Source: a virus
Taxonomy: Duplodnaviria > Heunggongvirae > Uroviricota > Caudoviricetes
DNA length: 4,938 nt
Reading direction: 5' to 3' (one strand)
Virus record (IMG/VR): IMGVR_UViG_2648501498_000015
The notes below the pieces were generated by a model that saw only the letters and a program-made list of their open reading frames with translations, did not search any database and had not been told where the DNA came from. This document shows positions 4,401-4,489 of the stretch, piece by piece (position 1 is the first letter of the stretch; every line of letters starts with the position of its first letter). A program made the position numbers and the translations under genes.

Positions 4401-4447
4401 TGGGCTGTAGTCCCCGTGTGTCATTCAGGCTTCCGGACTACAGCCCA
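4401..4447. repeat. 13-bp perfect inverted repeat with 21-nt spacer, 43 nt upstream of the esterase start
   Basis: TGGGCTGTAGTCC (4401-4413) and GGACTACAGCCCA (4435-4447) are exact reverse complements. No T-run follows, so it is not a canonical intrinsic terminator. Confidence 0.6.
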
Positions 4448-4489
4448 CTCCATATCTGATTTAATACACTATCCCGGCCGGGAGGAATA

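What the first reader, a model, noticed from the sequence alone, without database searches (positions are those of the whole stretch)
4401..4482. Two palindromic elements just upstream of the esterase start: 13-bp inverted repeat and CCCGGCCGGG abutting the Shine-Dalgarno
A 13-bp perfect stem (4401-4413 with 4435-4447, 21-nt loop) without a following U-run is unusual for a terminator. It could be an RNA processing or stability element, an antiterminated pause site, or a dimeric protein-binding site. The palindrome CCCGGCCGGG (4473-4482) overlaps the GGAGG of the esterase gene and could sequester the ribosome-binding site.
Basis: seen in the sequence. Interest (0 to 1): 0.4.

Follow-up and report, generated by a model that had tools for sequence, protein, structure and literature searches.

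The report
Conserved RNA hairpin before phage esterase gene
The 13-bp inverted repeat is a real stem-loop, kept by compensating mutations, in the late-transcript leader of the nanS-p esterase gene of Shiga-toxin-type prophages; it sits just after a terminator and is not a terminator itself, while the small CCCGGCCGGG palindrome at the ribosome-binding site is no more than chance would give.

Summary
The window is the late region of a lambdoid (Stx-phage-like) prophage: hok/sok, NinG-like, RusA, Q, tR'-like terminators, TerB/DUF3927 remnants, convergent sRNAs STnc100 and AgvB, then nanS-p (ATG 4490).

The 13-bp perfect inverted repeat (4401-4413 / 4435-4447) is confirmed. It is the longest in the window, and 0 of 300 shuffles reach 13 bp.

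Across about 200 related phage and prophage loci the stem persists through changes on both sides (T-A to C-G, A-T to G-C, G-C to U-A) and many G·U wobbles. The loop changes in sequence and length (11-27 nt). The wobble pattern and folding energies favour the + strand, which is the nanS-p sense strand.

The stem always lies 6-16 nt after a canonical terminator-like hairpin (4368-4389 plus a U-rich run). That hairpin also contains the -35 box of the minus-strand AgvB promoter. A model of the stem finds one copy per phage locus and none elsewhere.

My best reading is an RNA stability or processing boundary in the Q-antiterminated late mRNA. The function is inferred, not shown.

CCCGGCCGGG occurs at chance frequency, its centre varies, and it gives only a 4-bp, -5 kcal/mol hairpin. 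RBS sequestration is not supported.

This is a modest new member of a known kind.

The parts
4401..4447 (+). Hairpin 2, the finding: a 13-bp perfect stem (4401-4413 with 4435-4447) and a 21-nt loop (4414-4434). In most relatives a 14th G-C pair extends it; the window has T4400·C4448 at that position.
   Evidence: existence, beyond chance. (covariation). (+ strand preference). (covariance model: one + strand hit per locus, window 4397-4451, 61.6 bits).
4368..4389 (+). Hairpin 1: a GC-rich 9-bp stem with loop AACU, followed by the U-rich run 4390-4400 (UCUUCAUUUCU). It has the form of an intrinsic terminator on the + strand and closes the moron/sRNA module.
   Evidence: terminator scan. (same site in Stx2 phages, with a cleaner U5 tail). 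(helix 2: 2 pairs with double changes, G·U variants). (+ strand more stable in 31 of 32 variants).
4390..4400 (+). U/C-rich single-stranded linker between hairpins 1 and 2. It is the terminator tail and a candidate endonuclease site.
   Evidence: Sequence. The RN|WUU RNase E-type motif is present in 27 of 32 relatives but not in the window's own class.
4448..4471 (+). G-poor (1 G in 24 nt), predicted unstructured spacer between hairpin 2 and the ribosome-binding site.
4472..4483 (+). Mini-hairpin UCCC-GGCC-GGGA, containing the palindrome CCCGGCCGGG (4473-4482). It overlaps the first bases of the Shine-Dalgarno sequence.
   Evidence: -5.2 kcal/mol. (helix 5: almost invariant, no covariation). 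(palindrome at chance frequency).
4480..4492 (+). Shine-Dalgarno GGGAGG (4480-4485) and the ATG (4490-4492) of nanS-p.
   Evidence: Annotations of relatives.
4490..4938 (+). 5' part of nanS-p (DUF1737 + SASA sialate O-acetylesterase). It runs off the end of the window.
4344..4378 (-). Inferred sigma70 promoter of AgvB on the minus strand: -35 TTGCGC (4378-4373, inside hairpin 1), 18-nt spacer, -10 TAAAAT (4354-4349), TSS about 4343. On this strand hairpin 2 lies at about -58 to -104.
   Evidence: Position of the AgvB model start. Sequence. GCGCAA is invariant in all 32 aligned leaders. The promoter itself is inferred.
4282..4343 (-). AgvB anti-sRNA gene (context).
   Evidence: RF02702, 92.8 bits, gathering threshold 56.
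4129..4318 (+). STnc100-family sRNA, convergent with AgvB (context).
   Evidence: RF02076, 119.4 bits, gathering threshold 47.

Best explanation
SHOWN. The inverted repeat encodes a stem-loop that forms in + strand RNA, that is, in the Q-antiterminated late transcript that carries nanS-p. It is the second hairpin of a conserved leader: an intrinsic-terminator-like hairpin 1 (4368-4389 plus a U-rich run), a short U-rich linker, hairpin 2, a roughly 40-nt G-poor spacer, the SD and the ATG. Selection acts on the stem, not on the loop. It is a single-copy element tied to one family of nanS-p leaders in Escherichia/Shigella lambdoid prophages.

INFERRED. Hairpin 1 stops transcription that is not Q-modified (from the moron and sRNA promoters) before it reaches nanS-p and the lysis genes. 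Q-modified polymerase reads through both hairpins. In the read-through RNA, hairpin 2 acts as a stability or processing boundary. After endonucleolytic cleavage in the U-rich linker it would leave the nanS-p/lysis mRNA with a protective stem-loop near its 5' end, and the upstream segment would end in hairpin 1. It could equally act as a barrier to 3' exonucleases. It does not act by terminating transcription, and it does not act by sequestering the RBS.
For: - Existence beyond chance.
- Conservation with compensation in 32 distinct leaders drawn from about 190 loci: helices 93% and 83% paired, 7 of 14 pairs changed on both sides, 0 of 500 shuffles reach the observed values, and slid controls are 36-50% paired. 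RNAalifold finds the same stem unprompted.
- The class-H leader (L174) shows T-A to C-G twice and A-T to G-C, plus three G·U pairs.
- Strand: G·U 56 cells against A·C 8 cells. The + strand is more stable in 23 of 32 variants (mean -20.0 vs -16.8 kcal/mol). Divergent classes collapse on the minus strand, for example -21.1 vs -5.8.
- The loop varies in sequence and length while the stem is kept.
- Hairpin 1 matches the terminator pattern in the window and in Stx2 phages.
- No consensus sigma70 promoter lies between hairpin 1 and the ATG.
- Published work shows nanS-p is co-induced with stx by mitomycin C or norfloxacin, i.e. late Q-dependent transcription (PMC10462455; PMC8065619).
- One copy per locus, always in the nanS-p leader, in 712 kb searched. 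The module is present in 1106 of 5426 complete E. coli genomes with up to 9 copies and in 285 phage records.
- An RN|WUU motif lies in the linker in 27 of 32 relatives, against 43% in shuffles.
Against: - There are no RNA-end or half-life data for this site. The function is inferred from anatomy only.
- The window's own class lacks the strict RN|WUU motif.
- Two other nanS-p leader families do without this hairpin: class I (AT-rich, no hairpins) and class J (a strong terminator, then only a weak, variable short stem). It is therefore not required for nanS-p expression as such.
- The relatives are closely related and recombining. The compensatory changes trace to only about 5-6 lineages (A, B, C, D, E, H).
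- Several single-locus variants carry uncompensated mismatches (T·T, A·C).
- The Stx1c-type copy is weak (-8 to -13 kcal/mol).
Confidence: 0.45

Rival explanations
1. Backup termination or pause element. Hairpin 2 is a second, non-canonical (factor-assisted or Rho-linked) barrier just after terminator hairpin 1. Together they keep transcription that is not Q-modified, starting at moron or sRNA promoters, out of nanS-p and the holin/endolysin genes in lysogens. Q-modified polymerase ignores both.
For: - It lies 6-16 nt after a terminator in every member.
- In the window the terminator's U-tract is interrupted (UUCUUCAUUUCUU).
- The loop and the 3' flank are C/U-rich and G-poor, like Rho loading sites.
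- Class J leaders have a stronger terminator (U8) and no robust second hairpin.
- Lysis genes lie downstream.
Against: - No U-run follows the stem in any class. Class H has AACUGUUGAGG after it.
- Loops of 11-27 nt are far outside terminator norms.
- The G-poor flank is not conserved in class H.
- There is no termination data.
Confidence: 0.2
2. Translational control of nanS-p. The leader structure sets ribosome access, either by SD sequestration in the CCCGGCCGGG mini-hairpin, by a long-range linker-SD/AUG pairing, or by hairpin 2 flanking a single-stranded 'standby' platform.
For: - The mini-hairpin UCCC/GGGA covers the first bases of the SD and is almost invariant. Class H keeps a UCCC...GGGA stem with a different loop, GGAAAG.
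- The window's minimum-energy fold pairs 4393-4400 with the SD and AUG.
- A G-poor unstructured spacer precedes the SD.
Against: - The mini-hairpin has only 4 bp and -5.2 kcal/mol, with no covariation.
- The 10-bp palindrome is at chance frequency and its centre is variable.
- The long-range helix has 0 double changes and is 68% paired against 67% in shuffles.
- Hairpin 2 is 42 nt from the SD.
Confidence: 0.1
3. No function of its own. The hairpin would be a hitch-hiking or remnant palindrome inside a conserved 'linker' block that serves as a homologous recombination joint between the moron/sRNA modules and nanS-p, kept similar by recent spread.
For: - Homology to different upstream modules starts at hairpin 1.
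- The relatives are closely related (75-99% identity).
- Other nanS-p leader families lack it.
- Some uncompensated mismatches exist.
Against: - Compensatory double changes occur in 7 of 14 pairs.
- There is a strand-specific excess of wobble pairs.
- The loop diverges freely while the stem is kept.
- A one-base insertion in Stx2_499 restores inner pairing.
Confidence: 0.12
4. DNA-level element. The palindrome would be an upstream site, at -58 to -104, for a dimeric regulator of the divergent minus-strand AgvB/AsxR-type promoter, or a cruciform.
For: - It lies just upstream of the inferred AgvB promoter, whose -35 (TTGCGC) is invariant inside hairpin 1.
- Leader families without that -35 (class J) also lack a robust hairpin 2.
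Against: - Half-sites 13 bp long sit 11-27 bp apart with variable spacing.
- Both arms change together, which a fixed protein would not tolerate.
- G·U-type changes are favoured on one strand only.
- No protein candidate is known.
Confidence: 0.07
5. Nus-factor site. Hairpin 2 would be a boxB-like stem followed by a boxA, in the order seen in rrn leaders, loading NusB/NusE.
For: Directly 3' of the stem many relatives read CGCTCCTTATC and some read CGCTCTTTATC, which is identical to the boxA core GCTCTTTA.
Against: - The window reads CACTCCATATC.
- Other classes read GTGCCTTC, GTACCTTT, AGTCCTTA, or have no such run at all (class H).
- The GCTC core is not conserved.
- The late operon already uses Q.
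Confidence: 0.03

Closest known systems
Intercistronic stabiliser stem-loops of polycistronic mRNAs (for example the REP hairpins in malE-malF), and 5' stem-loop stabilisers (ompA-type leader)
   Same: It is a stable GC-rich hairpin without a U-tract, placed between cistrons of a long operon transcript. Only the stem is under selection. It sits next to a single-stranded U-rich segment of the kind RNase E prefers.
   Different: It is not a dispersed repeat: there is one copy per phage and no REP consensus. Whether it ends up within a few nucleotides of a 5' end, as the ompA paradigm requires, is unknown.
Intrinsic (Rho-independent) terminators, such as the neighbouring hairpin 1 and tR'
   Same: GC-rich stem in nascent RNA; lies in a terminator-rich moron boundary.
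   Different: Loop of 21 nt (11-27 in relatives) and no 3' U-tract in any class. It was not picked up by the terminator scan, while hairpin 1 was.
Convergent sRNA module of lambdoid prophages (STnc100/EcOnc27 with AgvB/AsxR/EcOnc03; Tree et al. 2014, PMC4104026)
   Same: [quoted passage not shown] Hairpin 1 overlaps the anti-sRNA promoter.
   Different: Hairpin 2 lies outside both sRNA genes. It matches no Rfam family, and no Hfq peak is listed for it in the part of that paper's Table S2 that I read.
Phage RNase III processing sites (T7 R-sites, lambda sib)
   Same: Hairpins between phage genes that cut or shape long transcripts.
   Different: Those are about 20 bp or more of coaxial helix, usually with an internal loop. 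Here there are 13-14 bp.
nut / rrn antitermination sites (boxB hairpin + boxA)
   Same: A hairpin followed in some relatives by a boxA-like CGCTCTTTA.
   Different: The boxA core is not conserved and is absent in the window. The stem and loop are unlike boxB. The location is in the late operon rather than the early operons.

Membership tests
Intrinsic terminator | GC-rich stem with a short (3-8 nt) loop | tested here: not met
   The stem is GC-rich, but the loop is 21 nt (11-27 nt in relatives). The terminator scan did not report it.
Intrinsic terminator | Run of U immediately 3' of the stem | tested here: not met
   The 3' flank is CUCCAUAUCUGA in the window, and no class has a U-run.
REP/BIME-type dispersed extragenic palindromes | Many dispersed copies sharing a consensus | tested here: not met
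   Covariance model R1 finds exactly one + strand copy per locus, always in the nanS-p leader, in 712 kb.
REP/BIME-type dispersed extragenic palindromes | Intercistronic or 3' location in transcripts; stabilises upstream mRNA | not testable with these tools
   The location is intercistronic. The effect on mRNA decay was not measured.
5' stem-loop mRNA stabiliser (ompA type) | Stem-loop within about 0-4 nt of the mRNA 5' end | not testable with these tools
   No 5'-end data were available. The supplements of the dRNA-seq/Term-seq paper are not held.
RNase III processing hairpin | About 20 bp or more of double-stranded helix | tested here: not met
   There are 13 bp in the window and at most 14 in relatives.
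nut / rrn boxB-boxA site | boxA core GCUCUU(U)A next to the hairpin | tested here: not met
   The window has ACUCCAUA. The core varies among classes.
SD-sequestering hairpin / RNA thermometer | SD paired in a conserved, evolutionarily supported helix | tested here: inconclusive
   The 4-bp UCCC/GGGA stem is present in 31-32 of 32 leaders but is invariant, so it is uninformative. It is -5.2 kcal/mol and covers only part of the SD. Class H keeps the stem with another loop.
Any Rfam 15 family | Covariance-model match | tested here: not met
   No hit at E <= 1 between 4344 and 4490 on either strand.
Palindromic operator for a dimeric DNA-binding protein | Fixed half-site sequence and fixed spacing | tested here: not met
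   The arms co-vary, the spacing varies from 11 to 27 nt, and there is a one-strand wobble bias.

The most novel reading that the evidence does not exclude
The terminator-plus-hairpin module is a dedicated checkpoint of Stx-type phages. It would insulate the lysis cassette from constitutive moron and sRNA promoters in the lysogen. After Q read-through, it would split the late transcript into separately stabilised toxin/moron and nanS-p/lysis segments. In that way it would set the ratio and timing of toxin production against lysis.
Probability: 0.12. Interest if true: 0.6.

Novelty: new member of a known kind. Interest (0 to 1): 0.33.

Why it matters
nanS-p lies between stx (or other morons) and the lysis genes in the late operon of Shiga-toxin phages and of many other prophages of pathogenic E. 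coli. The module is present in about 20% of complete E. coli genomes, with up to nine copies each.

If this RNA structure shapes the stability or segmentation of the late transcript, it could influence how much esterase and how much holin/endolysin is made relative to toxin. It could also influence how tightly the lysis genes are shut off in lysogens.

As it stands, it is an un-annotated but ordinary-looking structured leader element. Its practical uses are as a landmark for the boundary between the sRNA/moron module and nanS-p, and as a cheap target for mutational tests.

Tried and rejected
- tRNA or tmRNA remnant: none found.
- Known RNA family: no Rfam hit in 4344-4490.
- Promoter for nanS-p inside or after the hairpin: no consensus-like + strand site in the window, VT2-Sakai or Stx2_499. 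Hand inspection found only 3/6 + 4/6 matches that are not conserved.
- Long-range pairing of the linker with the SD and AUG, seen in the window's minimum-energy fold: no covariation.
- boxA/boxB reading: the motif is not conserved and is absent in the window.
- Dispersed repeat or MITE: single copy.
- Coding explanation, prompted by small ORFs annotated over the site in YYZ-2008 gp41 and P13374 ORF46: rejected because of loop indels of 6-16 nt and paired substitutions.
- HnrS (EcOnc10-12), a multicopy prophage sRNA with a similar copy number: it lies about 5 kb away from AgvB1 in Sp10, so it is not this site.
- The portion of Tree et al. 2014 Table S2 that I read lists no Hfq peak at the hairpin.
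- TSS and Term-seq tables of Sy et al. 2020 could not be read because the supplements are not held.
- A protein-based genome search found DUF1737-type nanS-p only in Escherichia, so no deep phylogenetic comparison was possible.
- I asked whether a 'second hairpin after the terminator' is universal. It is not: class J has only a weak, variable short stem and class I has none.
- A literature search combining nanS-p with structure terms returned nothing relevant.

Full report
CONTEXT. The window is the late-regulatory region of a lambdoid, Stx-phage-like prophage.
- It carries a hok/mok ORF with a sok RNA match (1-288), a NinG-like ORF (1103-2152), RusA (2165-2539) and a 273-aa Q antiterminator (2536-3357).
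- Two terminator-like hairpins follow Q (3391-3455), then TerB/DUF3927-type ORF fragments (about 3500-4085).
- Next comes a convergent sRNA pair: STnc100 (4129-4318, +, 119 bits) and AgvB (4343-4282, minus, 92.8 bits).
- The 5' part of the prophage sialate O-acetylesterase gene nanS-p follows, with its ATG at 4490.
- This is the layout described by Tree et al. [quoted passage not shown] The conserved ORF is nanS-p.
- The finding lies in the 146 nt between the AgvB start and the nanS-p start.

OBSERVATION.
- The inverted repeat is exactly as described: arms 4401-4413 and 4435-4447, 13 of 13 complementary, 21 nt between them.
- It is the longest perfect inverted repeat in the window, and none of 300 dinucleotide-preserving shuffles reached 13 bp (maximum 11).
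- The RNA fold of 4390-4495 is more stable than all 200 shuffles (z = -3.0).
- No U-run follows on either strand.
- CCCGGCCGGG is at 4473-4482 and overlaps GGGAGG (4480-4485). However, 10-bp palindromes occur four times in the window against 5.0 +/- 2.4 in shuffles, so the palindrome is not remarkable in itself.
It is AGGCUGCGC-AACU-GCGUGGCCU at 4368-4389, followed by UCUUCAUUUC.

COMPARATIVE DATA.
- The 160 nt around the site match 285 phage records, mostly Stx1a- and Stx2a-converting phages, at 73-99% identity.
- They also match 3,413 places in 1,106 of 5,426 complete E. coli genomes, with a median of 3 and up to 9 per genome.
- I collected about 190 nanS-p 5' regions from annotated phages, IMG/VR contigs and genomes, and later about 300.
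- After dereplication there were 57 distinct leaders.
- One large leader family, which I label classes A-H (about 200 loci), shares the same architecture: hairpin 1 with a U-run, a 6-16-nt U-rich linker, hairpin 2, a roughly 30-45-nt spacer, UAUCCCGNCCGGGAGGA and the ATG.
- Homology to different upstream sRNA modules begins at hairpin 1.

COVARIATION.
- On a 32-sequence alignment (A2), the 14 pairs of hairpin 2 are 93% (outer helix) and 83% (inner helix) paired. Seven pairs show changes on both sides. For the whole structure given (27 pairs: hairpins 1 and 2 plus the mini-hairpin), none of 500 column shuffles reached the observed pairing, double-change counts or covariation score, and sliding the partner by 1-3 columns drops pairing from 88% to 36-50%.
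- RNAalifold recovers the same stem without guidance.
- Examples of compensation:
  - The outer pair T4401-A4447 is C-G in Stx2-type leaders.
  - Class H (L174) has T4408-A4440 changed to C-G and A4409-T4439 changed to G-C, plus three G·U pairs, and still folds at -27 kcal/mol.
  - Class E changes G-C to U-A and G-C to A-U.
  - Stx2_499 has a one-base insertion that restores the inner helix.
- The loop is free to vary, from 11 to 27 nt with unrelated sequence.
It is not met.

STRAND AND MOLECULE.
- Among non-Watson-Crick cells in the stem, G·U on the + strand outnumbers A·C (which would be a minus-strand wobble) by 56 to 8.
- The + strand RNA is more stable in 23 of 32 variants for hairpin 2 and in 31 of 32 for hairpin 1. 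The differences are large in the divergent classes, for example -21.1 vs -5.8 kcal/mol.
- This points to an RNA (or single-strand) structure on the nanS-p sense strand.
- It argues against a symmetric operator. A fixed protein would not tolerate concerted arm changes and variable spacing.

WHAT IT IS NOT.
- It is not a canonical terminator: the loop is long and no class has a U-tract.
- It is not a known RNA family: no Rfam hit at E <= 1.
- It is not a tRNA remnant.
- It is not a dispersed repeat. A covariance model of the stem finds exactly one + strand copy per locus, always in the nanS-p leader, in 712 kb of phage DNA.
- It is not an RNase III-type helix: it has 13-14 bp.
- It is not a nut-like site. 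A boxA-like CGCTCTTTA follows the stem in some relatives, but the core is not conserved and the window has CACTCCATA.
- No consensus-like + strand promoter lies between hairpin 1 and the ATG in three leader types.
- Published work shows nanS-p rising 1-2.4 logs with mitomycin C, together with stx2a, and being among the most norfloxacin-induced late genes (PMC10462455; PMC8065619).
- The hairpin is therefore part of the Q-antiterminated late transcript, not of a private nanS-p mRNA.

MECHANISM (inference).
- Hairpin 1 has every feature of an intrinsic terminator on the + strand. It would stop polymerases that start at the moron or sRNA promoters downstream of tR' before they reach nanS-p and the holin/endolysin genes. 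In a relative with a 100%-identical copy of the 127-nt module, the holin gene starts about 290 nt after the end of nanS-p, roughly 2.1 kb downstream of the nanS-p start.
- The loop and stem of hairpin 1 also hold the invariant GCGCAA. This is the -35 box TTGCGC of the minus-strand AgvB/AsxR-type promoter: -10 TAAAAT at 4354-4349, an 18-nt spacer, and the TSS at the Rfam model start, 4343. The promoter is my inference from sequence.
- Q-modified polymerase reads through. In the read-through RNA, hairpin 2 follows a short U-rich single-stranded linker.
- Two stable hairpins flanking such a linker is the classic anatomy of an endonucleolytic processing joint. The upstream piece would end in hairpin 1, and the downstream piece would begin a few nucleotides before hairpin 2, which could shield its 5' end. 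Alternatively, hairpin 2 could block 3' exonucleases.
- The RNase E-type motif RN|WUU is present in the linker of 27 of 32 relatives, against 43% in shuffles, but not in the window's own class. This is consistent but weak.
- I put this reading at about 0.45.
- The main rival, at 0.2, is a back-up, non-canonical termination or pause element that reinforces hairpin 1. The window's interrupted U-run and the absence of a robust second hairpin in class J leaders (which have a U8 terminator) fit that rival. The lack of any U-tract does not.

THE RBS PALINDROME.
- As RNA it can form only UCCC-GGCC-GGGA: 4 bp and -5.2 kcal/mol, covering the first bases of the SD.
- The stem bases are almost invariant, so there is nothing to test.
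- The central base is G, A, C or T in relatives, which breaks the DNA palindrome.
- One class keeps a UCCC...GGGA stem with another loop, GGAAAG. This is the only hint of selection.
- The long-range pairing of 4393-4400 with the SD and AUG seen in the window's fold has no comparative support.
- RBS sequestration is therefore unsupported, though not excluded.

LIMITS.
- The relatives are close and recombine freely, so the compensatory events reduce to roughly five or six lineages.
- Some single loci carry uncompensated mismatches, and the Stx1c-type copy is weak.
- Two other nanS-p leader families lack the element: class I (AT-rich, 44 loci) and class J (43+ loci, plus the E. albertii variant L015 that clustered apart). 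It is therefore dispensable for nanS-p as such.
- No RNA-end data could be read.
- I found no description of this hairpin in the searchable literature.

VERDICT. The element is a genuine, evolutionarily maintained RNA stem-loop in the nanS-p leader of Stx-type prophages. It is paired with an upstream terminator that doubles as the anti-sRNA promoter. Its exact role is unproven, and a stability or processing boundary is most likely. It is a new member of a familiar kind of element, with modest interest (0.33).

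Noticed in passing
window 4129-4343: Convergent prophage sRNA pair: STnc100-family RNA (4129-4318, +, 119 bits) and the anti-sRNA AgvB (4343-4282, minus, 92.8 bits, near-identical to the Rfam consensus). They share the hairpin at 4288-4307. That hairpin has a U-run only on the minus strand, so in this window the + strand sRNA may read on to hairpin 1.
   Followed up: partly
window 4344-4378 (minus strand): Inferred AgvB promoter: -35 TTGCGC lies inside terminator hairpin 1, and -10 is TAAAAT. GCGCAA is invariant in all 32 aligned leaders, including those where the downstream sRNA is replaced and where the -10 is TATTAT. One piece of DNA therefore serves as a + strand terminator and a minus-strand promoter.
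   Followed up: partly
window 1-288: hok/sok-type toxin-antitoxin: a sok RNA match (1-138, 73 bits, cut at the 5' end) and a 70-aa Mok/Hok-like ORF (76-288). Relatives annotate it as MokW/gef.
   Followed up: no
window 291-378: Sub-threshold IsrK-like match (26.5 bits, gathering threshold 50), next to the only other long perfect inverted repeat in the window (295-304 / 309-318, 10 bp, 4-nt loop).
   Followed up: no
window 3385-3470: Two terminator-like hairpins with U-runs (3391-3407, 3438-3455) lie just downstream of Q. This is the position of PR'-tR', where Stx phages produce the sRNA StxS. The only Rfam hit there was a chance-level one (suhB/mmgR, E = 0.71).
   Followed up: no
window 3497-4085: The TerB-like gene seems broken into pieces: a 48-aa ORF at 3811-3957 carries a TerB-like C-terminus, followed by a 43-aa DUF3927-like ORF at 3954-4085. 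In the relative L148 the TerB gene is annotated as a pseudogene with an internal stop.
   Followed up: no
L010 (phage 06-3462) 1630-2939: An IS3-family element (IS1203/IS629 type) is inserted between hairpin 2 and the nanS-p RBS, so the hairpins are separated from the gene in that phage.
   Followed up: no
L014, L018, L169, L224 (class I); L015, L026, L186 (class J): nanS-p genes also come with two unrelated leaders. Class I is a long AT-rich region with no hairpins. Class J has a strong terminator (GGCTGCGCATGGCGYGGCC + U7-8) followed by only a short, variable stem and a different RBS.
   Followed up: partly
L006, L039, L038, L138 and similar; aligned to window 4446-4456: Directly after hairpin 2, some relatives read CGCTCTTTATC, an exact match to the boxA core GCTCTTTA. 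Most read CGCTCCTTATC, and the window reads CACTCCATATC.
   Followed up: yes
L229 (E. coli STECUZB006) 2501-2545: A decayed prophage keeps AgvB and hairpin 1, but homology breaks inside the left arm of hairpin 2. This is a deletion junction leading into tail and lom genes.
   Followed up: no
L027 about 100-45 nt upstream of the ATG: A divergent leader (RBS CCCGTCCGGG) has a different long hairpin at the same relative position. Its right arm (GGGGCTGTCATCT) resembles the left arm of the Stx2-type hairpin 2.
   Followed up: no
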